From: Lachnospiraceae bacterium
GTDB taxonomy: Bacteria > Bacillota > Clostridia > TANB77 > CAG-508
DNA: 64,000 nt
Assembly (NCBI GenBank): GCA_963621995.1
Contig: CAVFFZ010000001.1
Location: 134,522-198,521 of the forward strand
Direction: 5' to 3'
The translations under genes were made by a program, and so were the position numbers. The notes under the pieces were generated by a model, which saw nothing but the letters and a program-made list of their open reading frames with translations, was not told where the DNA came from and did no database searches. Every line of letters starts with the position of its first letter. Position 1 is the first letter of the stretch. Shown in pieces: positions 351-11,248 of the stretch.

Positions 351-752
<402 letters not shown>

Positions 753-922
753 TTATGAATAGAAAGGCAACTAAAAAAGTGCCACATAGCATAGTTTTAG
801 CTATTAGCACTTTTAGAGTTTTAATATTTATTATTACTATCTCTTTAATTCTCTTTTTATAACACAAATAAACCAATATAGTATAATTTTTAAAAAACTC
901 TAAAATGCTTTACCGCTCTATG

Positions 923-1270
<348 letters not shown>

Positions 1271-1562
1271 AAACGGTTTAAAGTTTTTGTGTTGCCAAAT
1301 TCTCATAATCTTGAAATTAAGTTATATCAAGTATTATAGAGAGTTCGACGAAAACTTGTCTTGGTGTGAACAGCGTAGTTATCTACAACTTCCTGGCTCT
1401 CATAACAATTGGTACAAATATCAATCAACTTCTGTAATTAATTTAGCATAAAAGTTATAAATTTTCAAGTAATTATTTGGAAAACATAAAAGAACTGTTA
1501 AAGTGTTAAAGACAAAGGAAAGGTACAAAGACACTTTACCTCTGATATCTCTTTTTCATCTA

Positions 1563-3248
1563 TTAGAACTCCTTTTTGCTTTTTATATAATCACTATATT
1601 TTTTTACAAGTATGTTATTTATTTTTTTCCAGAGTTTATATTTACACTTTTTCCTTGCAGGGCATTTCTTACAATTTGGACATTGTGGCGCTTTTATTTT
1701 CTTCAAAAACACATCCGTATTAAATACAATATAATTTACTTCGTTTATTTTTTTACTTTTAGATTTTTTACTAATTACATCTTTTAGCTCATTTAAATAA
1801 ATTTTTTCAAATTGGTCGATATCACTTTTTAATTTTTCATCTATGTATTCAATAGTTTCTTCATATCTTTTTAAGTTTATTAAATAAATAATAAAAACGT
1901 AAAAATAATCCAAAGCAAAATACTCACCTTTTATCAAGCAATTTATTCCCATCAAATTACTAGGTTTAATTAAATCCATATATTTTATATTTTTTGAACA
2001 TTCATAAAATATTTTCTCAAACTCTATATTTTCTTGTTTTTCAAATAGATTGAAATATATATTTTTAATTTTCTTCATATTAACAGAAATTCTTAGATTA
2101 ATTGGTTTAATAGTTTCTATTTCTGAAAAATTTGGAATATAAACCTTAAATGTGTTAAATCCCATCATTGAATAATCTTTAATATATATATTCATTTTAT
2201 TTTTCTTTGCAATCTCTAGGATAGTTTTTAATGCTTCCTTATTACCTTTTACATTCTTAAAAGGAAGCTCTTTTATATCTATTTCATTATCTACAAACAT
2301 GCTATTGGGATGAATACCAGCATTTGATGAATAACATTTCAACCAATTATTTTGTAAAAATTCTTCACCATATTCTTCTTTATATTTTTCATAACCATTA
2401 TTTATATTTTTCATCTTTGCTTCAATGTTTTCTTTTTTTAACCCTTGAAATGCTTCTGTAATACATCTTTGTAAGGCAATATTAAAATTTGGATCCGAAC
2501 CAACCGTAAATAAATATTTTGTGTTTCCTTTAAGTAGCATAAGACCAACAACAGGGAATTTACCACCTAATGAGCAATCTTTTATTTTATATTCAAATCC
2601 CATGTTTTTCAACTCTCTTAATTGCTCACTTATCGGATACTGTTCTGAGTTTTTTATCATAATATTTTTTACTTTTATTTCTTCAAACATTATTTTTTTA
2701 TAACAATATCTTTCAAATATTTCGCAAATTCCTTGTACTAATGCTTCTTCCTTTGAGTTTCCTGAGCAAAGACCATTAGAATGCGTTAAAAAATTAATTA
2801 ATCTTATTGGTAAATCTTCTTTTTCATTATTTATTATATTTTCAAACGATGTATAATATCTATACTTATCATTATATTTTATTAAGTCATTTAATGAATT
2901 CACCTCAATAAATTCAGAAAACTTATTGTAAAATTCATTATGTTCAAGATATTTTTCATCTTTATAAATTAACATATCCTCTTTATTTAAAAATGTTGAT
3001 TTTAACAAGAAATTTGCTTGCAATCTTTCCATAAATTCTGCATATGCACTTGCTAACGCATATTCTTTGGTTATGCCTTTACCATTTGTTCCAATTTCTT
3101 TTATTTCTTTTAATTCCACCCTAGTTGAATAAAATGAATTATTAATATTAATAATTTCTTTTTCTACTACGTTAATTTCAAACTTTTTTAATATTTTTTT
3201 TATTTTTTTTACTGTTTCTTCTGGTTTACATTCTTTTCTATTATACAT
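1563..3248 (-). CDS. ycaO: YcaO-domain protein, E. coli YcaO-like, standalone and non-TOMM type
   Basis: NGKGITKEYALASAYAEFMERL, SNGLCSGNSKEEALVQGICEIFERY and DCSLGGKFPVVGLML match the conserved blocks of E. coli YcaO (CFTNGKGATKKAALASALGEYFERL; SNGMSAGNTRNEARVQGLSEVFERY; DGSLGGQYPVICVVL). Confidence 0.8.
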   Translation of the reverse strand: MYNRKECKPEETVKKIKKILKKFEINVVEKEIININNSFYSTRVELKEIKEIGTNGKGITKEYALASAYAEFMERLQANFLLKSTFLNKEDMLIYKDEKYLEHNEFYNKFSEFIEVNSLNDLIKYNDKYRYYTSFENIINNEKEDLPIRLINFLTHSNGLCSGNSKEEALVQGICEIFERYCYKKIMFEEIKVKNIMIKNSEQYPISEQLRELKNMGFEYKIKDCSLGGKFPVVGLMLLKGNTKYLFTVGSDPNFNIALQRCITEAFQGLKKENIEAKMKNINNGYEKYKEEYGEEFLQNNWLKCYSSNAGIHPNSMFVDNEIDIKELPFKNVKGNKEALKTILEIAKKNKMNIYIKDYSMMGFNTFKVYIPNFSEIETIKPINLRISVNMKKIKNIYFNLFEKQENIEFEKIFYECSKNIKYMDLIKPSNLMGINCLIKGEYFALDYFYVFIIYLINLKRYEETIEYIDEKLKSDIDQFEKIYLNELKDVISKKSKSKKINEVNYIVFNTDVFLKKIKAPQCPNCKKCPARKKCKYKLWKKINNILVKKYSDYIKSKKEF

Positions 3249-3265
3249 CTTTTAACTCTTCCCTT

Positions 3266-3302
3266 TATAAAAATAAGAGAAGCCTATTCAATTAGACTTC
3301 TC
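3266..3302 (-). terminator. Intrinsic terminator-like hairpin (GAGAAGTCTAATTGAATAGGCTTCTC plus T-run) between the small ORF and ycaO
   Basis: 8-bp stem followed by TTATTTTTAT on the minus strand, 18 nt upstream of the ycaO ATG. Confidence 0.45.
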
Positions 3303-3311
3303 ATGTTTTAC

Positions 3312-3383
3312 TTAGTCTTGGCAATAGTTTCCGCCTAATTCTCTAATCATTGTTTTGTCATTTGCCTTTTCATTAATGACCAT
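3312..3383 (-). CDS. Unannotated 23-codon ORF MVINEKANDKTMIRELGGNYCQD. It is a candidate precursor-like peptide with an ELGG motif followed by a short Cys-containing tail.
   Basis: Read directly from the minus strand between the PEP-utilising gene stop (3397) and the terminator/ycaO. There is no strong Shine-Dalgarno sequence, so translational coupling to the upstream gene is possible. Confidence 0.3.
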   Translation of the reverse strand: MVINEKANDKTMIRELGGNYCQD

Positions 3384-3396
3384 TAATGGAGACTTT

Positions 3397-5193
3397 TTAC
3401 TTTTCAAAATCTTCTTTATAGCTTTTATCATCCTTAATCACCTCCTTTTCTTTTTTTTTTGTTTTTTCATATATTCTACTTGAACATACTTCACCTGTAG
3501 TGCCATTTACATAGATTTCATTTTCGTCTCGCAAAGCTTTTAAAGCCTTCCTCCCAACTCCAGTTACACAAGGAATTCCTAATTCTCTAGCAATAATAGC
3601 TGAATGGCATAACATTCCTCCTACAGCTGTAACCAAACCAGATGATCTAGACATAATATCTAGCCAATCAGGATCTGTAAACATTGATATTAATATATCT
3701 CCATCATTCCATTTTTCTATATCTTTTAAATTTCTATAATAAGCTGATTTTCCTATTACTTCTCCTGTTGATGCTGGAGAACCTACAAAGATTTCTTCAT
3801 CAGAATTTGTTAAAGTTTTATTTTTCTCCATAGAAACTTCTCTTGTAACAGGTCTGTATTGCAATAATATCAATTCTCCATCTATAACACACCACTCCAT
3901 ATCAGCCGTGTCTCCATTAAACTTAGCTAGTGCGTTTTGAATATCTAATAATTGCTTTCCTATATAATCGTTAGTTTTTATTCCATCTTGTGTACCATTA
4001 GTTCTATTCCATTCTTCTCTTATTGGAGTCTCTTTTCCAGAAACTAATTTTTCGCCATTTCCTTTTTTCCATTCTAAAATACCTTTATCTTCACTTTGTC
4101 CTATCCAAACTCCTGATATTTCTGGCTCAATAAATTCTTGTATTATAACATTCATATTTGGTTGTTGTAAGTTATTTATTTCAATATATTTTTTTACCCT
4201 ATCATTCTTTACAGATTGCTTTACATCTCTTACTCTATCTATAATATTTTTCTTTTCAACATTTAAATATGAATCAAACATTCCAGCAAAAGAGTGTATT
4301 CCACCATCTTCTGCATTAGCAGAACTTCTAACAGCATATTTTTTATTTTCATCAAGTAAATTTTTAATTTCATTATCTTCTATTTCAACATAATAAGGTA
4401 TAACATAAGTTTTAGGTATCTTAATTTCACTTGCTCTTAATTTTGCCAATCCCAATGCTTTTCCACCTATCATATCTTTCAATTCGTCTTCCAAACCTGA
4501 TTCATAAAGCTTTGCCAAATATTCTATTGGTACAATTTTCATTTTTTTCAAATCTTCTTTTGCTCTTTTTACTAGTGTTTTTTTATGTATTAACATTAGG
4601 TTTTGATCTGGTTCATCTATATATTCTAATTCTAATGGATAAAGAGGTCTAATTCGTTTCATAGAATAAAGTCTTTGTTCATCTTGCCATTTTTTCATTA
4701 CCAAATACTTTTTCATTTCTTCATCATTAGGTAATTGTAGATTCTGTTCTTTTAATATCGTTTTTCCATCGACTGATAAATATGCTCTATCTATCTTTTT
4801 AACAATATCTAGATAATCTTTTCCATATTTCTTTTTTATATCTTCTATTATTTTTTCACTAAATGAACTATTTTCATTTAGTGCTTCTACTAAGCAAAAA
4901 TACGCCAAACCTCGTAATGAATAATTTACTTTCTTTTCATATTCTTCTGCCTTATCTCTCAATTTAAATTGTCCTTCTGCCTTTGCTCTCAGCATTTGAA
5001 ATAATTCGTCTATTTCTTTTGCAGTTCTTTCTTTGCTAACATACTCAATTATAGAATTTACTTCATTCATATAATCACTATCATGTATAGCTTCCATTAA
5101 ATTTCTGAAATAAAATGTTTCAGCATCTTTTGTTATAAAGTTGTCCACTTTTTCTTTAAAAAGTTTAAAATCCTCTACACTAACTTCTCTCAT
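3397..5193 (-). CDS. PEP-utilising enzyme family protein of PEP synthase/rifampicin-phosphotransferase-like architecture. It has an ATP-grasp PEP/pyruvate-binding module plus a C-terminal phospho-His swivel domain, with a ~220-aa unknown N-terminal region.
   Basis: GGKALGLAKL (PPDK_N-type nucleotide-binding loop) and TAVGGMLCHSAIIARELGIPCVTGV (PEP-utilising mobile-domain His motif). Confidence 0.7.
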   Translation of the reverse strand: MREVSVEDFKLFKEKVDNFITKDAETFYFRNLMEAIHDSDYMNEVNSIIEYVSKERTAKEIDELFQMLRAKAEGQFKLRDKAEEYEKKVNYSLRGLAYFCLVEALNENSSFSEKIIEDIKKKYGKDYLDIVKKIDRAYLSVDGKTILKEQNLQLPNDEEMKKYLVMKKWQDEQRLYSMKRIRPLYPLELEYIDEPDQNLMLIHKKTLVKRAKEDLKKMKIVPIEYLAKLYESGLEDELKDMIGGKALGLAKLRASEIKIPKTYVIPYYVEIEDNEIKNLLDENKKYAVRSSANAEDGGIHSFAGMFDSYLNVEKKNIIDRVRDVKQSVKNDRVKKYIEINNLQQPNMNVIIQEFIEPEISGVWIGQSEDKGILEWKKGNGEKLVSGKETPIREEWNRTNGTQDGIKTNDYIGKQLLDIQNALAKFNGDTADMEWCVIDGELILLQYRPVTREVSMEKNKTLTNSDEEIFVGSPASTGEVIGKSAYYRNLKDIEKWNDGDILISMFTDPDWLDIMSRSSGLVTAVGGMLCHSAIIARELGIPCVTGVGRKALKALRDENEIYVNGTTGEVCSSRIYEKTKKKEKEVIKDDKSYKEDFEK

Positions 5194-5206: not shown

Positions 5207-6478
5207 TTATATATCAATTATTTTATCTCTTTTTAATGCAATTAACAATTCCTTTGTTTCATTATAAAGTTTAGGTTTAATTTTTGCAATATATTCTCCT
5301 GTATAATTTCCATCAATAATTTTTAATATATTTAAAGTTGCTTTATTACATTGCCTTAAAGGATGTGCTATTAAAATATAACGATTATATTTTTCTTTTC
5401 TCACATTTTTTATTTTTAATTTTAATTTTTTGTTTTTTATTTCATTCCATATTTGGATTTCATTTTTTTCTAATAACTCATCGCAGGATTCTTTCCAAAA
5501 TTTGCCACTTAATTCTGCTTTGCACCCTCCTCTACATTTTAATAATTCATTACAGTTTTTGCATCTTAATGGTAACCAGCTCATTTTTTGAAATTTTTTA
5601 TTTTCTCTACATTTCCATATTTTTTCAAATTTATCATTTTTCATATTTCCCAAAACAAAATTTGAGCTTGCACAAATCTTAACATCTCCATTAGCCTCTA
5701 TAGCACAAAATTTATAGCCTGCTCCGCAACCATGGCATAAATACCTGTACTTATCTTCTAATTGGCAAAAAGCAATACAATTACTTATTTTAATATCAAA
5801 GCCTTCATTATTTAGTTGATTTACTATTTCAATCATATTTTTCAAATTATCCTTTGTGTAGTTTTTTCCATTTCCGATATAATTTAGTCGTGCAACTGTT
5901 AGTTTCCAATTGTATTTTTCACACAATGTTGCTAGAGACTTTATATTATTATATTCTGTGTTTTCTGGAACAGTAGTACAATTTATATTTATTGATATGT
6001 TTTTAAAATCTTCTTCCACATATTTTAACCCATTAATAATTTGTTTGTAGCAATCCTTTTGAGAAAGTTTATTATGTGTTTTTTCGTTTCCATGTATAGA
6101 TACACCTAATGAATTAATATACTTTAATACTTTTCTTATATTTTCTTGTTCTAATAATACACCATTTGTAATTAGTATCTGATTAAATCCTAATTCATAT
6201 CCATACTCTAACAATTCTTCTAAGTATTTATATAATAATGGTTCGCCACCAGTATAATATATATTACATACACCTATTAATTTTAATTCTTTCAATATTT
6301 TTTTTGCAAGTTCAAAATCCATGTCTACACAACTATTATTTTCTGATTGAGAACAAAATTTACAGCTTAACATACATTTACTAGTTATTTTCATATATAC
6401 AGATATTGGATTTTTTAAGGTCTTTAAATTTATTTTTTTCCTTGTATCAACATTTCCATATTTATATATTTGATTCAT
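5207..6478 (-). CDS. Radical SAM enzyme with a C-terminal SPASM domain (peptide/protein-modifying maturase type). It has an ~80-aa C-terminal extension.
   Basis: CMLSCKFC (CxxxCxxC), GGEPLL, CHGCGAGYKFCAIEANGDVKICASS...CKNCNELLKCRGGCKA auxiliary cluster motifs. Confidence 0.8.
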   Translation of the reverse strand: MNQIYKYGNVDTRKKINLKTLKNPISVYMKITSKCMLSCKFCSQSENNSCVDMDFELAKKILKELKLIGVCNIYYTGGEPLLYKYLEELLEYGYELGFNQILITNGVLLEQENIRKVLKYINSLGVSIHGNEKTHNKLSQKDCYKQIINGLKYVEEDFKNISININCTTVPENTEYNNIKSLATLCEKYNWKLTVARLNYIGNGKNYTKDNLKNMIEIVNQLNNEGFDIKISNCIAFCQLEDKYRYLCHGCGAGYKFCAIEANGDVKICASSNFVLGNMKNDKFEKIWKCRENKKFQKMSWLPLRCKNCNELLKCRGGCKAELSGKFWKESCDELLEKNEIQIWNEIKNKKLKLKIKNVRKEKYNRYILIAHPLRQCNKATLNILKIIDGNYTGEYIAKIKPKLYNETKELLIALKRDKIIDI

Positions 6479-6714: not shown

Positions 6715-6939
6715 TTACCGTGACTTATCCTTCAAAATAATTTCACTAGTTTTTGTTTTATCAGTGTTTATTTCTTTTACTTTTGCTAGATTTATTAACA
6801 AATATAATTTATCACTTTCACTATATTTCTCTCTAATTTCTTTTTTAAACTTTAGAATATCTTTTTCAAAATTTTCATTGCCATAAATGTTTTTTATTAA
6901 AACTACGATTGCTTCATTTCCAAATAAATAGTTTATCAT
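6715..6939 (-). CDS. Hypothetical 74-aa protein without Cys. A second frame is open across its 3' end into the start of the rSAM/SPASM gene.
   Basis: ORF track. An overlapping 89-codon open frame at 6462-6731 overlaps both this ORF and the downstream gene start. Confidence 0.35.
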   Translation of the reverse strand: MINYLFGNEAIVVLIKNIYGNENFEKDILKFKKEIREKYSESDKLYLLINLAKVKEINTDKTKTSEIILKDKSR

Positions 6940-7148
6940 ATTTGCTAAAGACTCAAAACTTGTTTCAAACTCACTATTCGTTTTTAGCTGATTTTCATAA
7001 AGTTTCTTGCATCAATTACTCCATATAATTTTATACTTCCTAATTTACTTCTTTGTATTTTATCATATATCTCTGGAAATTTTTTTTGACTTTCTGGTTT
7101 TAACATCAAATAATCATATTTTACCATAACACATTTTACTTATATATT

Positions 7149-7967
7149 TTAATAAAACTCTATTGCATTATATTCTGTAATAGCTCTTGAATCGTTAATT
7201 AAAATTATTCTTCCTTTCCATTTTTTATTTTTATTCAAAAATTGTTCAATTATTTTTTGTAAGTTTTCTTTACTTAATGGTTTTAAACTTTTATCTCTTC
7301 GTTTTTCACCACATAAATTGTTTATTTTTAAATAAATTCTATCTCCTAATTTATCTAAGATATCAGCAAATTTTTGCATATCTTCATAATTAAAATTATT
7401 ATACGCCACAAAAGTAACAATTGTTCTTACACTTTTATATTTAGATGATAAAGCAATAGTTTTTAAAACATTGTCCCAACATAAATTTGAATTTTTTATT
7501 CCTGCTGTAGTGATAGCTTCTTCTTTTGTTAATCCCTTTAAAGAAACTCCTAAAACATCAACTAAATTTTTCTTTAATAATTTTTCTACAATAGCTGGTA
7601 ACGAACCATTTGTATCTAAAAACACAATTCCATTATTTTGTTTAACAATCTGTAATTCCTCTTCTAAATAAATATTTAGACAAGGTTCTCCACCAGTAAA
7701 TTTAAACATATTTCCTTTTTTTATTAATTCTAATACTCTTAATCTAAAATCTTTAATTTCCATATAATTAGCTTTATGCTCTGTCTTCACTGCATATTTA
7801 CAAAATGCACAAGAAAAATTACACTTGCTATATGCCATTGCATGTGAATTTCTAGTATCGAATTTTTCACTTCTGTCTATGCACTTAGGAGCAAAAAAAT
7901 TTTCACCTATACTTACATCAATTTTCATTTCCTTCTCCATAATATTATTTTTTACAATAAAAGACAA
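7149..7967 (-). CDS. Small radical SAM protein (272 aa) with a PflA/QueE/NrdG-like core
   Basis: CNFSCAFC CxxxCxxC motif, FTGGEPCL, FLDTNGS. Confidence 0.7.
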   Translation of the reverse strand: MSFIVKNNIMEKEMKIDVSIGENFFAPKCIDRSEKFDTRNSHAMAYSKCNFSCAFCKYAVKTEHKANYMEIKDFRLRVLELIKKGNMFKFTGGEPCLNIYLEEELQIVKQNNGIVFLDTNGSLPAIVEKLLKKNLVDVLGVSLKGLTKEEAITTAGIKNSNLCWDNVLKTIALSSKYKSVRTIVTFVAYNNFNYEDMQKFADILDKLGDRIYLKINNLCGEKRRDKSLKPLSKENLQKIIEQFLNKNKKWKGRIILINDSRAITEYNAIEFY

Positions 7968-8060: not shown

Positions 8061-8861
8061 TTAGTTAATATCTCTCTTTTTGTTCTTATTCGCTTTGCTT
8101 TCATCTGGTATTATTACCTTTCTATAAATATTATTAGCTATTTCATTATCGTTGTCATCAAATATTCCGTTTCTATATAAATCATCACTAACAATTTTAT
8201 AATTTTCACTTTTATCATAGCAAATTTTTTTGTGAAAGTGGCTCATAATACTATGCCAAAAGCTTTTGAATCTCTGTAATTCTTGTTTTAGTTTTTCTTT
8301 TTCAGTTTGTAACTTGCCTATAATCTTATCTTTAGTAGATAGTTCCTTTTTTAAATTGCCGATTTCATTATCTTTTAGTCCTATTTCATATTTAAGTGAA
8401 CGGTTTTCCTTTTCTATTTCAAGGCTAGAATGTTCAAAATCTTTAATTGCCATATTTAAGCCATTTACATTTCTTACTGTCTGGGTTATATCTTTTACAT
8501 CTTCTGTATAATTTTTGATTTTTTGAACATCTTCATTTGAAATAAGCATATTGTTTTTCTTTAGTTTAGCAGGCTTTAAATTATTTAAAATCTTATCTAT
8601 ATCCTTACTTGTATTTTCAATCTCTCTAGTTTGAATATTAGCTTTTTCAAGTCTTTGTTCTTTTTGCCTTAGTTGTTTCTTAATTTTTCTATAATTAACC
8701 ATTTCATTAACATTGATGTCTTGATTTCTACCTTTTTGCTTTTCTTTTAGTCTAGTATTAACCTCATAAAACTTGTTATATGACTTAATACAAGCATTTC
8801 TCATTTTATCTTGTATTTCTGTTAAAGATGTTTTTGTAAATAGCTTAGTTTTCCCAACCAA
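8061..8861 (-). CDS. Hypothetical coiled-coil protein (266 aa) next to the integrase, possibly mobile-element associated
   Basis: Charged heptad-rich sequence with no recognisable catalytic motif. Confidence 0.4.
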   Translation of the reverse strand: MVGKTKLFTKTSLTEIQDKMRNACIKSYNKFYEVNTRLKEKQKGRNQDINVNEMVNYRKIKKQLRQKEQRLEKANIQTREIENTSKDIDKILNNLKPAKLKKNNMLISNEDVQKIKNYTEDVKDITQTVRNVNGLNMAIKDFEHSSLEIEKENRSLKYEIGLKDNEIGNLKKELSTKDKIIGKLQTEKEKLKQELQRFKSFWHSIMSHFHKKICYDKSENYKIVSDDLYRNGIFDDNDNEIANNIYRKVIIPDESKANKNKKRDIN

Positions 8862-9200
8862 TGAAATAATCGTTCTAAATAGCTTGTATCAAGGAATACA
8901 GGCTATCTTATTATTCTTCACTGTTTATATTTTTGAATAATTTTAAATATTTAATTTTCACTAGAGTACCAATGCTTTTCACGATTTTTCATTTTTCTTA
9001 ATTTTTAATTTTCTAAACTACCAACTAAACAAGCGACATTATTTTTTTCTATAATTAAATTTTGTTTATTTGATAAAGTGATTTTTTTAACAAATTCTTA
9101 TTTTTGAAAAATACGAAACTCATATATACTAGATATATCAATGACTTACGAGAAATAAATTTGTTTAGTTGATAGCTTGAAATTTGTAATAACTTAGTAA

Positions 9201-10424
9201 TTATCTTTCATTTTCAATGTTATTTTCTTTGTTTTTTTCACTTAATAAACTGTTTCCAATTAAATTCTCATTTAAGTAATATTGATTTACTTTGTCAATT
9301 TCTCTTTCCTTATATTTATCAAAAACTGACGTATATGTATTTAATGTAACACTGATGTTTTTATGACCCATTAATCTTTGAACTACTACTGAAGCGACAC
9401 CACTTTCAATACAACGTGTTCCAAAGGTATGCCTTAAAGAATGACTAGAAATATCAGTAACATTAAATTCTTTTTTGAAAATTCTTTTTAACTCATTATT
9501 TATAGTAGAACGTCTGCAATATTTACTATTATAAGGTTTAAAAAGTAGTTTTTCTTCATTATTTATTTGAGTGTCTGCAATTTTCATTTGTTCTATAATA
9601 TAAGGATAAAGAAAATACGGAATAGGCAATATTCTTTTTCCTGCATAAGTCTTTGTTTTATTTCCCATTATAATATTACCTTTTTCGTCTGTTGTTAATG
9701 TTCTATGAATATTTATCCTTTTATGTTGTAAGTCAATATCGTGTATTGTAAGTGCCAATGCTTCGCCAATTCTTAAACCTGTATACATTTGAATTAAAAA
9801 TACATTTCTATACTTAAATTCATTTATAGGTTTATCAATAAGAAAATTTGTAAATTGCTGTTGTTCTTTTACTGTTAATGCACGTACAATTTTATCTTCT
9901 TTATCACTTTTTGGTTGAATAACATTTGCCATAGGGTTTTGTGTTATATATCCCTTATTCATTGCAGTAGTAAAAGCCTGATTTAATTGTTGATATGCCT
10001 TTTCTATCATTGAATTACTTAAATGCTTTAGAGAGTTTAAGTATTCTTGTAATTCGTCTTGTTTTATTGTATCAATGTTTTTATTTCCAAGTGATAGTTT
10101 TTCTAATTGCTGTATTGAGTGCAAAGTACGTCCATATTGTGCTGGAGAAATTTGATTTGTATTATATTTTAAGTTTAAATTTTGCTTTAAAATCTCACAT
10201 AGTGGTATTCCGTTGTGTTCAATATATAATGGGTTTTCTTTTTGATACATAACAGTATCTAAATATCTTCTTGCATCTTCTTCGGTTTTAAAACTTTTAG
10301 TTTTTAACTGCAATTTTCCTGTCTTTATGACATACTCTCTATATTGTGCGTTCCAACATTTTCTTTGTTTATTAAAAAATACATATCCTTCACTACTTCC
10401 TTTTTCTGCCATATTACACACCAC
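9201..10424 (-). CDS. int: Site-specific tyrosine recombinase / phage-type integrase
   Basis: C-terminal HSLRHTFGTRCIESGVASVVVQRLMGHKNISVTLNTYTSV (R...HxxR...Y catalytic region) and RILPIP box. Confidence 0.85.
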   Translation of the reverse strand: MVCNMAEKGSSEGYVFFNKQRKCWNAQYREYVIKTGKLQLKTKSFKTEEDARRYLDTVMYQKENPLYIEHNGIPLCEILKQNLNLKYNTNQISPAQYGRTLHSIQQLEKLSLGNKNIDTIKQDELQEYLNSLKHLSNSMIEKAYQQLNQAFTTAMNKGYITQNPMANVIQPKSDKEDKIVRALTVKEQQQFTNFLIDKPINEFKYRNVFLIQMYTGLRIGEALALTIHDIDLQHKRINIHRTLTTDEKGNIIMGNKTKTYAGKRILPIPYFLYPYIIEQMKIADTQINNEEKLLFKPYNSKYCRRSTINNELKRIFKKEFNVTDISSHSLRHTFGTRCIESGVASVVVQRLMGHKNISVTLNTYTSVFDKYKEREIDKVNQYYLNENLIGNSLLSEKNKENNIENER

Positions 10425-10663
10425 CTTTTTTGTTCATTTTCCAAAGTAAGTATGCTGCCAAAGTAACAACTTTTCTTTTACCTAAAAGTACAATACGAGT
10501 ACTTTTGACATCTCTTAGATCCGTTTAACAAAATACAATATAATTGTAATATAATATAAATTTTTCAAAGTGCTCGTAAACATATAGCTTTTGACGAACA
10601 GCTATATACAATTAATTGGCTATATTATATCACGATTTCAAGAAATGTCAAATATTTACAAAT

Positions 10664-10945
10664 TTATATTTTTTTCAAATATTCTTCTAACTCTGATAAT
10701 TTTATCTTTTTAGATAAGTTTGAAATATACACATCATTTGAATAATTGAAAACTAAAAAAGTAATACTTTTAATAATCACTTTATGTGGCTCAATATATG
10801 TAAGATTAGTTTTTTCTAATTTCCTAATGCTACCATTTATAAAAGTAGGGGTAACTTTAGCAAATTCACATATAAATTCAAGTCTCTGTTTTAGACATTC
10901 TTCAAATTGTAATTCTTGTTTAATTATTTTCAATTTATACACCAT
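10664..10945 (-). CDS. Small conserved hypothetical protein, paralog B, transcribed immediately upstream of the integrase
   Basis: Alignable with the ORF at 923-1234 (INGSIRKLEKTNLTYIEPHKVIIKSITFLVFN...LSEL). Confidence 0.5.
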   Translation of the reverse strand: MVYKLKIIKQELQFEECLKQRLEFICEFAKVTPTFINGSIRKLEKTNLTYIEPHKVIIKSITFLVFNYSNDVYISNLSKKIKLSELEEYLKKI

Positions 10946-11059
10946 CCTTTCGTTTGGATGATTTTAATATTGTTTTTAGACAACAAAAAAATCAACCAGA
11001 TTTATTTTCTGATTGATTTTGTATCAATTCTGTTCTATTAGTTCGAACAGAAACGTCAT

Positions 11060-11145
11060 TGGTGGGCAGGGATGGATTCGAACCATCGTACTCGTATGAG
11101 AACAGATTTACAGTCTGCCGCCTTTAGCCACTCGGCCACCTACCC
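11060..11145 (-). tRNA. tRNA-Tyr (GUA), long variable arm, CCA encoded
   Basis: The reverse complement folds as GGGTAGG acceptor / GGCCGAGTGGCTAAAGGCGGCAGACTGTAAATCTG anticodon arm (GTA) / long variable arm / GGTTCGAATCC T-arm / CCCTGCCCACCA. Confidence 0.85.
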
Positions 11146-11172
11146 ATATATTAAATTGTATATAAATAAAAT

Positions 11173-11248
11173 GGTGCTCCCTCAAGGATTCGAACCTTGG
11201 ACCCACCGGTTATGAGCCGGTTGCTCTGACCAACTGAGCTAAGGGAGC
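11173..11248 (-). tRNA. tRNA-Met (CAU), elongator type with a G1-C72 pair; Ile2-lysidine not excluded
   Basis: Reverse complement: GCTCCCTTAGCTCAGTTGGTCAGAGCAACCGGCTCATAACCGGTGGGTCCAAGGTTCGAATCCTTGAGGGAGCACCA. Confidence 0.85.

What the first reader, a model, noticed from the sequence alone, without database searches (positions are those of the whole stretch)
3249..3396. Hidden 23-codon ORF (MVINEKANDKTMIRELGG-NYCQD) with its own terminator between the PEP-utilising gene and ycaO
The 148-bp gap contains a short ORF on the operon strand that ends in ...ELGG followed by NYCQD. This resembles a double-glycine-type leader junction followed by a tiny Cys-containing core. A stem-loop plus T-run sits between it and ycaO; attenuator-like hairpins after precursor genes are common in peptide-modification operons. 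It is below any ORF-caller threshold and would be missed by standard annotation. The lack of a clear Shine-Dalgarno sequence is a caveat.
Basis: seen in the sequence. Interest (0 to 1): 0.6.

Follow-up and report, generated by a model that had tools for sequence, protein, structure and literature searches.

The report
Conserved 39-codon modified-peptide precursor gene
The short reading frame is a real, strongly conserved 39-residue gene of human-gut Clostridia whose invariant tail (GGNYCQD) is most likely the substrate of the three neighbouring peptide-modifying enzymes, an enzyme combination that no paper or curated family found here describes.

Summary
The ORF and the hairpin plus T-run are real. 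However, the gene is 39 codons, not 23. It starts at ATG 3431, behind a canonical AAGGAGGTG ribosome-binding site, and overlaps the last 35 nt of the PEP-utilising gene.

The peptide (MIKAIKKILKSKKSPLMVINEKANDKTMIRELGGNYCQD) belongs to a family of about 70 sequence clusters ending in GGNYCxD or GGNYCxDxC. G34, N35, Y36, C37 and D39 never change across 21 distinct DNA versions, although their codons vary synonymously; dN/dS is 0.05-0.37.

Through at least five gene orders the peptide gene stays with an E. coli-type YcaO and rSAM/SPASM enzyme(s). A rifampin-phosphotransferase-like His-swivel kinase accompanies them in all but one locus. One-Cys peptides co-occur with one SPASM enzyme and two-Cys peptides with two.

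In all six diverged loci with the window's gene order, a hairpin plus T-run of unrelated sequence follows the peptide gene.

The gene is not hidden: GenBank lists it as a hypothetical protein (CDA59116.1, Clostridium sp. CAG:245). A double-glycine export leader is not supported.

Best reading: it is the precursor of an uncharacterised RiPP-like product, and the hairpin is a leaky terminator. The chemistry is inferred, not shown.

The parts
3312..3431 (-). 39-codon precursor-like gene plus stop codon (MIKAIKKILKSKKSPLMVINEKANDKTMIRELGGNYCQD*). Codons 1-12 overlap the 3' end of the PEP-utiliser gene in another frame.
   Evidence: Called as a gene on related contigs. Exact sequence in GenBank as CDA59116.1. 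dN/dS 0.05-0.37.
3439..3447 (-). Shine-Dalgarno sequence AAGGAGGTG of the peptide gene, with a 9-nt spacer from GGAGG to the ATG at 3431.
   Evidence: GGAGGTG or GGGGGTG sits at the same distance in 13 of the 16 loci shown; L010, L030 and L013 are the exceptions.
3336..3431 (-). Leader-like part (residues 1-32). It comprises a Lys-rich N-terminal segment MIKAIKKILKSKK, a conserved Leu18 and a variable middle.
   Evidence: Alignments. K14 is invariant and L18 nearly invariant in A2. Met17 is not conserved.
3315..3335 (-). Invariant C-terminal motif GGNYCQD, the putative core and site of modification.
   Evidence: G34, N35, Y36, C37 and D39 are invariant in 68 family members. In 21 distinct DNA versions these codons show only synonymous variation.
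3267..3302 (-). Hairpin (3302-3277) plus T-run (3276-3267), starting 10 nt after the stop codon. Proposed leaky intrinsic terminator or attenuator, or an mRNA 3'-end stabiliser, placed before ycaO.
   Evidence: An equivalent hairpin plus T-run of unrelated sequence is present in all six diverged loci with the same gene order (z -3.3 to -7.4). Only 18 nt remain before the ycaO ATG (3249-3266), leaving no room for a promoter.
1563..3248 (-). YcaO, 561 aa, E. coli-YcaO type with a C-terminal helical domain and a CxxCxxCx5C motif.
   Evidence: Pfam YcaO 1e-43. Best PDB match is 4Q84, 4e-55. AF2 pLDDT 91.9, Foldseek TM 0.70 over the full length to 4Q85/4Q86. The ATP/Mg residues S71/E75/E78 of EcYcaO align with S67/E71/E74. 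pI 9.0.
3397..5193 (-). PEP-utiliser/PPDK-type phosphotransferase, 598 aa. It has an unknown N-terminal domain of about 240 aa, an ATP-grasp domain and a C-terminal swivelling His domain.
   Evidence: Pfam PPDK_N and PEP-utilizers. Best PDB match is rifampin phosphotransferase 5FBS. His530 in GGMLCH aligns with the residue I count as His825 of RPH-Lm.
5207..6478 (-). Radical SAM/SPASM enzyme, 423 aa ('SPASM_A'), with a C-terminal extension of about 90 aa of unknown fold.
   Evidence: Pfam Radical_SAM and SPASM. The profile's best PDB relatives are SkfB (1.5e-27) and CteB (2.4e-21).
7149..7967 (-). Second radical SAM enzyme, 272 aa, NrdG/QueE-like, without a SPASM domain. It co-occurs with the one-Cys peptide type.
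6715..7023 (-). Remnant of a 223-aa gene that is intact in related clusters (L005, L087).
   Evidence: tblastn gives 47% identity over 90 aa only. A 74-aa ORF with no Pfam hit.

Best explanation
The 39-codon gene encodes the precursor (substrate) peptide of an uncharacterised ribosomal-peptide modification system, a RiPP-type cluster.

Shown:
- The gene has a canonical ribosome-binding site and is under purifying selection.
- The N-terminal 30 or so residues vary, while the C-terminal G-N-Y-C-x-D is invariant.
- The gene co-travels with YcaO, rSAM/SPASM enzyme(s) and, in all but one locus, the PPDK-type phosphotransferase, through several gene orders.
- The number of Cys in the peptide tail matches the number of SPASM enzymes.
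- A hairpin plus T-run always follows the gene when ycaO lies downstream.

Inferred:
- The Lys-rich leader docks the peptide on the enzymes.
- The rSAM/SPASM enzyme, whose closest solved relatives are the thioether formers SkfB and CteB, links Cys37 to a nearby carbon. The invariant Asp39 or Asn35 are the obvious acceptors, by analogy with Cys-Asp links made by PapB and QhpD.
- The E. coli-type YcaO uses ATP to activate a backbone amide in the motif. This would give a thioamide, as EcYcaO does at Met82-Gly83 of uL16; the [L/M/V/I/C]-G-G step is analogous. A thiazoline at Tyr36-Cys37 is the alternative.
- The RPH-like kinase transfers a phosphate via His530 to a hydroxyl or carboxyl of the motif, with the invariant Tyr36 as the prime candidate.
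- The hairpin is a leaky terminator. It gives abundant precursor transcript and a lower level of read-through ycaO message, because no promoter fits in the 18 nt before ycaO.
- No conserved protease or exporter gene was recognised, and the core is invariant across bacterial classes. The product is therefore more likely a conserved small signalling or cofactor-like molecule than a diversifying bacteriocin.
For: - ORF, SD and overlap.
- Conservation at 53% and 50% YcaO identity.
- Family of about 70 clusters at 90% identity and 31 representatives at 50% identity in 1.84 billion proteins.
- Invariant G34, N35, Y36, C37 and D39.
- dN/dS 0.05-0.37. All synonymous codons are used at invariant residues in 21 DNA versions.
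- SD conserved.
- Five or more gene orders keep the peptide with the enzymes. In L011 the peptide stays upstream of ycaO although the kinase gene has moved.
- Presence/absence matrix: one Cys goes with one SPASM plus rSAM272; two Cys go with two SPASM. There are no exceptions among complete loci.
- YcaO loci without the kinase and SPASM genes lack the peptide.
- Hairpins.
- Enzyme assignments.
- EcYcaO function, and the note that non-acidic members of its group sit in RiPP-like contexts: PMC13063428. These YcaOs are basic, pI 8-9.4.
Against: - No chemistry, mass spectrometry or expression data exist. Every modification proposed is by analogy.
- No recognisable RiPP recognition element was found in the window's enzymes by Pfam, by hhalign (probability 9%) or by single-sequence AF2 (pLDDT 45).
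- No protease, transporter or immunity gene was recognised in the conserved set (most neighbours were judged from precomputed Pfam listings). It is unclear how, or whether, a leader is removed.
- A related cluster type (L021-L029) has the same enzymes but no GGNYC peptide within the DNA fetched.
- An invariant core is atypical of antimicrobial RiPPs.
- Some strains carry decayed clusters (L002/L003, L010; frameshifted peptides P0125, P0192, P0193).
Confidence: 0.75

Rival explanations
1. The peptide is a scaffold or carrier rather than the source of a peptide product. Chemistry is done on its C-terminal residues to release a small molecule, as with the pearlin/TglA, PQQ or mycofactocin logic. 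Alternatively it is a non-substrate accessory subunit whose conserved Cys-containing tail binds a metal or Fe-S cluster or delivers sulfur to the YcaO.
For: - The core is invariant across Clostridia and Bacilli, which is typical of cofactor precursors.
- No conserved protease or exporter was seen.
- The modified motif lies at the extreme C-terminus.
- EcYcaO-type enzymes lack a known sulfur donor (PMC13063428).
- The YcaO carries three invariant Cys at its C-terminus.
Against: - The C-terminus itself is not conserved: D39 is terminal in one type, while xC follows it in the other. That argues against pearlin-like C-terminal extension chemistry.
- At 39 aa it is far too small for a ThiS/MoaD beta-grasp carrier, and GG is not C-terminal.
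- The match between Cys count and SPASM count fits a substrate better than a subunit.
Confidence: 0.15
2. The ORF is a cis-acting regulatory leader peptide. Its translation controls formation of the downstream hairpin and hence ycaO expression (classical attenuation), and the peptide itself has no function.
For: - The hairpin starts only 10 nt after the stop codon, so a terminating ribosome could interfere with the 5' arm.
- ycaO has no promoter of its own in the 18-nt gap.
Against: - The peptide gene keeps its sequence in clusters where it is not upstream of ycaO: after ycaO in L092/L097, convergent in L090, before SPASM in L083, and before an aminotransferase gene with no hairpin in L013-L017.
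- Amino-acid invariance across classes, with a strong SD, goes beyond what attenuation leaders show.
- There is no alternative anti-terminator pairing.
Confidence: 0.04
3. It is a double-glycine-leader bacteriocin or pheromone. The leader is cut after GG by a C39 peptidase-ABC exporter, releasing a modified pentapeptide NYCQD.
For: - G33-G34 is nearly invariant.
- E/Q-L-G-G loosely recalls E-L-x-x-I-x-G-G leaders (the latter recalled from general knowledge).
Against: - Position -4 is E/Q, not hydrophobic.
- The first G is S in several members and D in L010.
- The residues after GG are invariant rather than variable.
- No Peptidase_C39 or ABC exporter appears in the Pfam listings around any related locus.
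- Neither Pfam nor NCBIfam recognises the peptide.
Confidence: 0.08
4. Chance ORF in an AT-rich intergenic spacer, with an ordinary operon-internal hairpin.
For: Short ORFs are abundant in this sequence: 126 of at least 20 aa in 12 kb.
Against: Conservation, dN/dS, the SD, co-migration with the enzymes, and gene calls in thousands of contigs.
Confidence: 0.01

Closest known systems
E. coli YcaO (EcYcaO), backbone thioamidation of ribosomal protein uL16 at Met82 (Rice et al. 2026, PMC13063428)
   Same: - The window's YcaO is far closer to EcYcaO than to azoline-forming or methanogen YcaOs. The profile E-value is 4e-55, against 7e-18 for MJ1094 and 1e-5 for LynD.
- There is a full-length structural match including the C-terminal helical domain (TM 0.70).
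- The ATP/Mg residues are retained.
- No TfuA partner was seen.
- The paper notes that a few non-acidic members of the EcYcaO group sit in putative RiPP clusters.
   Different: - EcYcaO is acidic (pI 4.4), recognises a folded protein and has no nearby peptide gene.
- These enzymes are basic (pI 8-9.4) and are encoded next to a conserved 39-aa peptide.
- They carry a C-terminal CxxCxxCx5C motif.
- Whether the paper's Figure S33 clusters include this family could not be read, because it is held only as an image.
Sactipeptide/ranthipeptide-type rSAM/SPASM maturases (SkfB, CteB, PapB; QhpD for Cys-Asp/Glu links)
   Same: - The rSAM/SPASM architecture.
- The best solved relatives are SkfB (1.5e-27) and CteB (2.4e-21).
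- The substrate tail has an invariant Cys and an invariant Asp two residues away.
- The number of Cys tracks the number of SPASM enzymes.
   Different: - Scores against the curated families are far below their cut-offs: PapB 54 vs 340 bits, SkfB 58 vs 300 bits.
- The precursor is unrelated to SCIFF or Skf peptides.
- A YcaO and a His-swivel kinase are part of the set, which no described sacti- or ranthipeptide cluster has (to my knowledge).
- Thioether formation has not been shown.
Rifampin phosphotransferase (RPH) and PigC/RedH: ATP-grasp plus swivelling phospho-His enzymes acting on small molecules
   Same: - ATP-grasp (PPDK_N) and a C-terminal mobile His domain.
- The catalytic His is conserved (His530 aligned with His825).
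- No PEP/pyruvate TIM-barrel domain was detected (only PPDK_N and PEP-utilizers matched).
- The best PDB hit is RPH-Lm 5FBS.
   Different: - The RIF-binding domain is absent. Instead there is a unique N-terminal domain of about 240 aa with no Pfam match.
- All curated family scores are far below their cut-offs.
- A ribosomal peptide as substrate would be new for this enzyme type; no paper linking it with YcaO was found.
Leaky terminators after structural genes of lantibiotic/bacteriocin operons (for example after nisA; general knowledge, not tested here)
   Same: A hairpin plus T-run lies immediately after the precursor gene and before enzyme gene(s) that lack a promoter of their own. The structure, not the sequence, is conserved across six loci.
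   Different: - The precursor gene here is in the middle of the operon, after three enzyme genes, not first.
- Termination efficiency is untested.
- The hairpin is absent in the two-Cys clusters where another gene follows directly.
Peptide-derived cofactors made by rSAM/SPASM enzymes (PQQ/PqqA-PqqE, mycofactocin/MftA-MftC)
   Same: - A small precursor with an invariant C-terminal motif containing Tyr.
- The rSAM/SPASM enzyme gives weak hits to PqqE and MftC (1e-23 and 2e-23).
- No exporter or immunity gene was recognised.
- The core is conserved across classes.
   Different: - All scores are below the family cut-offs.
- No PqqD-type RRE was detected in the window's enzymes.
- No dependent dehydrogenases are nearby.
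- The YcaO and kinase have no counterpart in those pathways.

Membership tests
RiPP precursor peptide (generic definition) | Small ribosomally translated gene with its own translation signals | tested here: met
   39-codon ORF with AAGGAGGTG 9 nt upstream of the ATG. The SD is conserved in most homologous loci. Translation itself was not measured.
RiPP precursor peptide (generic definition) | Protein-level purifying selection with a leader/core architecture | tested here: met
   dN/dS 0.05-0.37. The core GNYCxD is invariant with synonymous-only codon variation. The N-terminal two-thirds are variable.
RiPP precursor peptide (generic definition) | Consistent co-localisation and co-evolution with tailoring enzymes | tested here: met
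   Every locus with enough flanking DNA has YcaO and an rSAM/SPASM gene next to the peptide, and all but L083 also have the kinase, across at least 5 gene orders. The Cys count matches the SPASM count.
RiPP precursor peptide (generic definition) | Demonstrated post-translational modification of the peptide | not testable with these tools
   Needs MS of the native or heterologously co-expressed peptide.
RiPP precursor peptide (generic definition) | A leader-binding domain (RRE) in at least one enzyme (common, not obligatory) | tested here: inconclusive
   In two-Cys clusters, the SPASM_B N-terminus aligns with the N-terminal parts of CteB and SuiB, which I recall hold their RREs. For the window's enzymes there is no Pfam hit, hhalign probability is 9% and single-sequence AF2 gives pLDDT 45.
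Double-glycine (GG) leader peptides processed by C39 peptidase/PCAT exporters | GG/GA/GS at positions -2 and -1 | tested here: met
   G33-G34. G34 is invariant and G33 is at least 90% conserved (S in some members, D in L010).
Double-glycine (GG) leader peptides processed by C39 peptidase/PCAT exporters | Conserved hydrophobic residues at -4, -7 and -12, with E at -8 (consensus recalled from general knowledge) | tested here: not met
   Position -4 is E/Q, -3 is L/M/C/V/I and -8 is T/A/K. The register does not fit.
Double-glycine (GG) leader peptides processed by C39 peptidase/PCAT exporters | Cognate C39-peptidase ABC transporter, or a stand-alone C39 peptidase, in the cluster | tested here: not met
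   No Peptidase_C39 or adjacent ABC exporter appears in the Pfam listings of the called genes of L001-L006 and L087-L098, nor among the window's cluster genes.
Double-glycine (GG) leader peptides processed by C39 peptidase/PCAT exporters | Variable core after the cleavage site | tested here: not met
   The residues after GG (N-Y-C-x-D) are the most conserved part of the peptide.
TOMM/LAP azol(in)e peptides | SagD-type cyclodehydratase YcaO with an E1-like/Ocin-ThiF partner and an FMN dehydrogenase | tested here: not met
   TIGR03604 SagD scores 60 bits against a cut-off of 219. No partner or dehydrogenase domain was seen among the neighbours. The closest structure is EcYcaO, not LynD or McbD.
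TOMM/LAP azol(in)e peptides | Core rich in Cys/Ser/Thr | tested here: not met
   There is one Cys (type a) or two (type b). Position 38 is variable: Q, S, E, G, T, N or R.
Thioamidated RiPPs (YcaO-TfuA) | TfuA encoded next to YcaO | tested here: not met
   No TfuA domain was seen in any neighbourhood listing. EcYcaO, a thioamide former, also lacks TfuA, so thioamidation is not excluded.
Sactipeptides/ranthipeptides | rSAM/SPASM maturase related to known thioether formers | tested here: met
   The best PDB relatives are SkfB (1.5e-27) and CteB (2.4e-21). However, scores are below every curated family cut-off.
Sactipeptides/ranthipeptides | Cys-to-carbon thioether in the product | not testable with these tools
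   Needs MS/MS or NMR of the modified peptide.
Intrinsic (rho-independent) terminator | Stable G+C-containing stem-loop directly followed by a T-run | tested here: met
   10-bp stem with 4 G-C pairs, loop of 6, then TTATTTTTAT. z = -4.7. The structure is conserved with different sequences in 6 loci.
Intrinsic (rho-independent) terminator | Transcripts actually end there (partial termination) | not testable with these tools
   Needs term-seq or RNA-seq.
uL16-modifying EcYcaO group | Highly acidic YcaO (pI about 4.4) with no adjacent peptide gene | tested here: not met
   pI is 9.0 for the window enzyme and 7.5-9.4 for 22 of the 24 homologues aligned. The peptide gene is adjacent.
Anti-phage viperin (pVip) | Viperin-family rSAM that passes the family threshold | tested here: not met
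   The PADLOC pVip hits cover only the generic rSAM core. NCBIfam viperin_w_prok scores 57.7 bits against a cut-off of 180. A SPASM domain is present, which I recall viperins lack.

The most novel reading that the evidence does not exclude
The invariant heptapeptide GGNYCxD is the precursor of a conserved small product, cofactor-like or signal-like, of abundant human-gut Firmicutes. It would be made by a previously undescribed enzyme trio:
- An E. coli-type YcaO acting on a dedicated peptide. This would be the first natural small-peptide substrate for that clade, possibly thioamidating the residue before Gly-Gly as EcYcaO does at Met82-Gly83 of uL16.
- A rifampin-phosphotransferase-type His-swivel kinase acting on a ribosomal peptide, for example on the invariant Tyr.
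- A thioether-type rSAM/SPASM enzyme joining Cys37 to Asp39 or Asn35.

Together these would define a new RiPP class.
Probability: 0.35. Interest if true: 0.8.

Novelty: new variant of a known kind. Interest (0 to 1): 0.62.

Why it matters
- The exact peptide is carried on at least 1000 metagenomic contigs from a common gut Clostridium lineage, and relatives occur in Bacilli and Erysipelotrichaceae MAGs. If there is a product, it would be widespread in the gut.
- The cluster links three enzyme types that the papers and curated families searched here do not describe together.
- It offers a tractable small-peptide substrate for the E. coli-type YcaO clade, whose only assigned function (uL16 thioamidation) dates from 2026 and whose sulfur source is unknown.
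- It would also be the first peptide substrate, to my knowledge, for an RPH/PigC-type phosphotransferase.
- The core is 7 residues long and invariant, so heterologous co-expression with MS read-out is straightforward.

Tried and rejected
A 41-aa version found only 5 close relatives. An alignment of locus-derived peptides was needed to reach the family.
2. Pfam and NCBIfam have no model for the peptide. All enzyme hits fall below the specific family cut-offs.
3. Literature searches found nothing on this family. They covered YcaO with PEP-utilising, PPDK, water dikinase or rifampin phosphotransferase, and the motif strings GGNYC, GNYCQD and GNYCSD. The single GGNYC text hit is an unrelated PRRSV vaccine paper. 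The only related statement is in PMC13063428, and its Figure S33 is an unreadable image.
4. RRE detection in the window's SPASM C-terminal extension and the kinase N-terminal domain was inconclusive: Pfam at E up to 10 gave nothing meaningful, hhalign against the SPASM_B N-terminus gave probability 9%, and single-sequence AF2 gave pLDDT 45, which is unusable.
5. Rfam found no known RNA family in 3200-3500.
6. The anti-phage defence reading gave only generic rSAM-core hits to pVip and was rejected.
7. The prophage reading of the flanking integrase region found no megablast match in the phage collection. No att-like direct repeats flank the cluster.
8. A ThiS-like sulfur-carrier reading of the 'GG' was rejected on size and on the position of GG.
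Full report
**Observation.**
All genes in this part of the window are on the minus strand.
- The PEP-utilising gene is 3397-5193 (598 aa) and ycaO is 1563-3248 (561 aa). The gap between them is 148 bp, as stated.
- However, the frame is open for 16 more codons. The full ORF is 3312-3431 and encodes MIKAIKKILKSKKSPLMVINEKANDKTMIRELGGNYCQD.
- Its ATG at 3431 is preceded by AAGGAGGTG at 3439-3447. The ORF overlaps the last 35 nt of the PEP-utiliser gene in another frame.
- No ribosome-binding site precedes the internal ATG.
- The consensus scan finds a terminator-like site at 3302-3277: a 10-bp stem with 4 G-C pairs and a loop of 6, followed by TTATTTTTAT. It folds at -15 kcal/mol, z = -4.7 against dinucleotide shuffles.
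- Rfam finds no known RNA there.
- A 39-codon ORF alone means little in this sequence, which has 126 ORFs of at least 20 aa in 12 kb. Everything rests on comparative evidence.

**Neighbourhood.**
- Upstream on the same strand lie a radical SAM/SPASM enzyme (5207-6478, 423 aa) and a second radical SAM enzyme (7149-7967, 272 aa, NrdG/QueE-like).
- A remnant of a 223-aa gene that is intact in relatives lies at 6715-7023.
- The intergenic distance is 13 nt between the SPASM and kinase genes. The kinase and peptide genes overlap, so the four genes look like one operon that continues into ycaO.
- None of the enzymes reaches the cut-off of any specific NCBIfam family. Neither Pfam nor NCBIfam recognises the peptide.

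**Conservation of the peptide.**
- The YcaO has 555 homologues with E <= 1e-10.
- On contigs encoding YcaOs of 87% and 53% identity, a 39-aa gene is called at exactly the same place. It reads MIKAIKKILKSKKSPLMVINEKASDKTMVRELGGNYCQD and MLKAIKMMLRGKKSPLIIINDKASDKAMSKQLGGNYCQD respectively.
- A scan of one genome per species identifies the window's lineage as Clostridium sp. CAG:245 or close uncultured gut Clostridia.
- A motif scan of all fetched loci finds the peptide wherever the YcaO is accompanied by the kinase and SPASM genes, and nowhere else.
- A profile built from these peptides retrieves about 70 clusters at 90% identity from 5.8 billion proteins. It retrieves 31 representatives at 50% identity from 1.84 billion.
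- Two types exist: ...[QE]LGGNYCQD* (38-41 aa, Clostridia) and ...GGNYC[SQEGTN]DxC* (35-56 aa, mostly Bacilli-type MAGs).
- In 68 aligned members G34, N35, Y36, C37 and D39 are invariant and G33 is at least 90% conserved. Rare variants outside that set have GGDYC.
- The N-terminal Lys-rich segment (M-I/L-K-x-I/L-K-K-I/L-...) is loosely conserved in both types. This holds even where it does not overlap another gene, as in L011, L013 and L083.

**Coding constraint.**
- For seven diverged one-Cys genes, Nei-Gojobori dN/dS is 0.05-0.37 in the 19 of 21 pairs where it could be computed. Synonymous sites are near saturation.
- In 21 distinct DNA versions of the tail, the codons are GGA/GGT/GGG/GGC for G34, AAT/AAC for N35, TAT/TAC for Y36, TGC/TGT for C37 and GAT/GAC for D39, with no amino-acid change.
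- The SD (GGAGGTG or GGGGGTG) sits at the same distance from the ATG in 13 of the 16 loci shown.

**Linkage to the enzymes.**
The peptide gene keeps company with YcaO and rSAM/SPASM genes, and in all but one locus with the kinase gene, through at least five gene orders:
- SPASM-kinase-peptide-YcaO (window, L001, L005, L087).
- SPASM-peptide-YcaO-kinase (L011).
- SPASM-SPASM-peptide-aminotransferase-B12 rSAM-kinase, with a convergent YcaO (L013-L017).
- SPASM-SPASM-kinase-peptide, with a convergent YcaO (L090).
- SPASM-SPASM-kinase-YcaO-peptide-methyltransferase (L092, L097).
- Kinase-peptide-YcaO-SPASM-SPASM (L094).
- Peptide-SPASM-SPASM-YcaO, without the kinase (L083).

A presence/absence matrix shows a strict rule among complete loci:
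- One-Cys tails (GGNYCQD*) occur with one SPASM enzyme plus the 272-aa rSAM.
- Two-Cys tails (GGNYCxDxC*) occur with two SPASM enzymes plus a second small ORF (see below).

This co-variation of substrate-like features with enzyme content is the strongest indirect argument that the peptide is the substrate.

**The hairpin.**
- In all six diverged loci with the window's gene order, the peptide stop codon is followed within 5-16 nt by a stable hairpin and a T-run. The stems have unrelated sequences, -11 to -26 kcal/mol, z -3.3 to -7.4.
- The structure, not the sequence, is therefore what is conserved.
- In the window only 18 nt separate the T-run from the ycaO ATG, and they contain its ribosome-binding site. 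ycaO therefore cannot have its own promoter there and must be expressed by read-through.
- The simplest reading is a leaky terminator, or a 3'-end stabiliser after processing, that raises precursor transcript over ycaO transcript. This is known for lantibiotic operons (general knowledge).
- In the two-Cys clusters where an aminotransferase gene follows directly there is no hairpin. The element therefore belongs to this gene order, not to the family as a whole.

**What the enzymes are.**

*YcaO.*
- The family profile matches E. coli YcaO (4Q84) at 4e-55. This compares with 7e-18 for the methanogen thioamide-forming enzyme and 1e-5 to 1e-7 for azoline-forming LynD, TruD and MusD.
- A confident AF2 model (pLDDT 91.9) superposes on EcYcaO over its full length, including the C-terminal helical domain (TM 0.70).
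- EcYcaO residues S71, E75 and E78, which I recall as ATP/Mg ligands from Dunbar et al. 2014, align with S67, E71 and E74. These are invariant in the family.
- EcYcaO was shown in 2026 to thioamidate Met82 of ribosomal protein uL16. The same paper notes that the few non-acidic enzymes in its group lie in RiPP-like contexts (PMC13063428).
- The enzymes here are basic, pI 8-9.4.
- They also carry a C-terminal CxxCxxCx5C motif with three invariant Cys.

*Kinase.*
- It has PPDK_N (ATP-grasp) and the mobile His domain but no PEP/pyruvate barrel match.
- Its best solved relative is rifampin phosphotransferase.
- His530 in GGMLCH aligns with the residue I count as His825 in the 5FBS chain, which I recall as the phospho-carrier histidine.
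- Its first 240 or so residues match nothing.

*rSAM/SPASM.*
- The profiles are closest to the thioether-forming RiPP maturases SkfB (1.5e-27) and CteB (2.4e-21).
- In the second SPASM enzyme of two-Cys clusters, the alignment to CteB and SuiB extends into the N-terminal regions of those proteins, which I recall hold their peptide-binding domains.

**Most likely mechanism (inferred).**
1. The peptide is translated from 3431.
2. The leader docks it to the enzymes.
3. The SPASM enzyme links Cys37 to a neighbouring carbon. The invariant Asp39 or Asn35 would give a Cys-Asp or Cys-Asn thioether like those made by PapB, QhpD or NxxcB (general knowledge).
4. The YcaO activates a backbone amide. By homology a thioamide is the favoured outcome. 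The [L/M/V/I/C]32-Gly33 step resembles Met82-Gly83 of uL16, which would explain GG conservation without invoking a protease. A Tyr36-Cys37 thiazoline is the alternative.
5. The kinase phosphorylates a hydroxyl or carboxyl of the motif, with Tyr36 the obvious candidate.

None of these steps has been shown. No protease, exporter or immunity gene was recognised in the conserved set (most neighbours were judged from precomputed Pfam listings), and the core is identical across bacterial classes. This points to a conserved small signalling or cofactor-like product rather than a diversifying antibiotic.

**The double-glycine idea.**
- GG is nearly invariant, but the surrounding residues do not fit the leader consensus: position -4 is E/Q.
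- The residues after GG are the most conserved in the peptide.
- G33 is S in several members.
- No C39 peptidase or PCAT appears in the Pfam listings around any locus.
- I therefore do not file it as a double-glycine leader. Cleavage after GG remains possible but is unsupported.

**Not hidden.**
The exact peptide is GenBank CDA59116.1, 'unknown [Clostridium sp. CAG:245]'. It is called on at least 1000 contigs, the longest being 1.77 Mb. Relatives are annotated 'hypothetical protein'.

**Novelty.**
- No curated family or paper in the searched library describes the peptide motif or the YcaO plus His-swivel-kinase plus SPASM combination.
- The nearest prior statement is the generic remark in PMC13063428. 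Its Figure S33 could not be read.
- I rate it a new variant of a known kind: a RiPP-type cluster, probably a new class. The main caveat is that all the chemistry is inferred.

Noticed in passing
L013:16445-16603(-), L014:16467-16616(-), L017:16525-16662(-), L021-L029, L083:4441-4626, L090:3545-3754, L092:2014-2157, L097:1238-1405, L094:5078-6844: A second conserved small ORF of about 40-50 aa, with the motif ..[IL][KR]ELRPxMTQCR[IVM][IV]Q[VIL][DE].. and Lys-rich tails. It lies directly upstream of the first SPASM gene in all two-Cys clusters. In L094 the same motif (..IRKLRGDITECRIIQLE..) is fused to the C-terminus of the YcaO, which suggests an adaptor or accessory role rather than a second precursor. 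It is absent from the window's one-Cys cluster type.
   Followed up: partly
L021-L023, L026-L029: A third cluster type in Erysipelotrichaceae and Bacilli MAGs, with a 633-aa YcaO. It has the kinase, two SPASM enzymes, a B12-type rSAM, an aminotransferase and the TQC small ORF, but no GGNYC peptide within the DNA fetched. Its substrate is unknown; the TQC peptide, or a distal gene, could serve.
   Followed up: partly
window 1563-1700 (YcaO residues 518-540): The YcaO C-terminus carries APQCPNCKKCPARKKCKYKLW. Of this CxxCxxCx5C motif, C523, C526 and C535 are invariant in 24 homologues. This includes two acidic YcaOs not linked to the peptide (P0027, P0073). It could be an Fe-S or Zn site, conceivably relevant to sulfur delivery for thioamidation.
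   Followed up: no
window 6715-7023: Only a 74-aa ORF or 90-aa tblastn remnant remains of a 223-aa gene (no Pfam match) that is intact between the two rSAM genes in L005/L006 and L087-L089. The accessory gene has been lost in this lineage.
   Followed up: partly
window 351-1234 and 8061-11248: The cluster is bracketed by mobile-element genes:
- a tyrosine integrase (9201-10424) next to tRNA-Tyr (11060-11145) and tRNA-Met (11172-11248);
- a truncated serine-recombinase ORF (351-749);
- two paralogous small ORFs (923-1234 and 10664-10945, 40% identical).

Close relatives of the cluster sit in other contexts: next to thioredoxin reductase in L001-L003, next to mutS in L087, and next to integrases or IS elements in L090 and L097. 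The cluster therefore appears to be mobile. No att repeats and no phage match were found.
   Followed up: partly
L002/L003, L004, L010; proteins P0125, P0192, P0193, P0197: Signs of decay appear in some strains.
- The SPASM gene is truncated or split in L002-L004.
- L010 has a mutated SD, a G33D change, loss of most of the SPASM gene and loss of the first 150 or so codons of ycaO.
- Several contigs carry frameshifted peptide genes.

The system is dispensable in part of the population.
   Followed up: partly
L087:12013-12840, L088/L089:10699-11526: A gene of the MbnB/TglH/ChrH (DUF692) family, which is another peptide-modifying enzyme family, lies between mutS and mutL a few kb downstream of the cluster in one lineage.
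   Followed up: no
window 1255-1277 (-): A second terminator-like hairpin plus T-run (ACCGTTTCAAAAAATGAGGCGGT CTTTTTTTTG) lies 286 nt downstream of the ycaO stop. It is the likely end of the operon, and a possible bidirectional partner is found on the plus strand at 1241-1258.
   Followed up: no
L094:9392-10291: In one metagenomic contig the cluster is immediately followed by a gene for a SMODS (CBASS-type nucleotidyltransferase) domain protein. This is probably only a neighbour on a mobile island.
   Followed up: no
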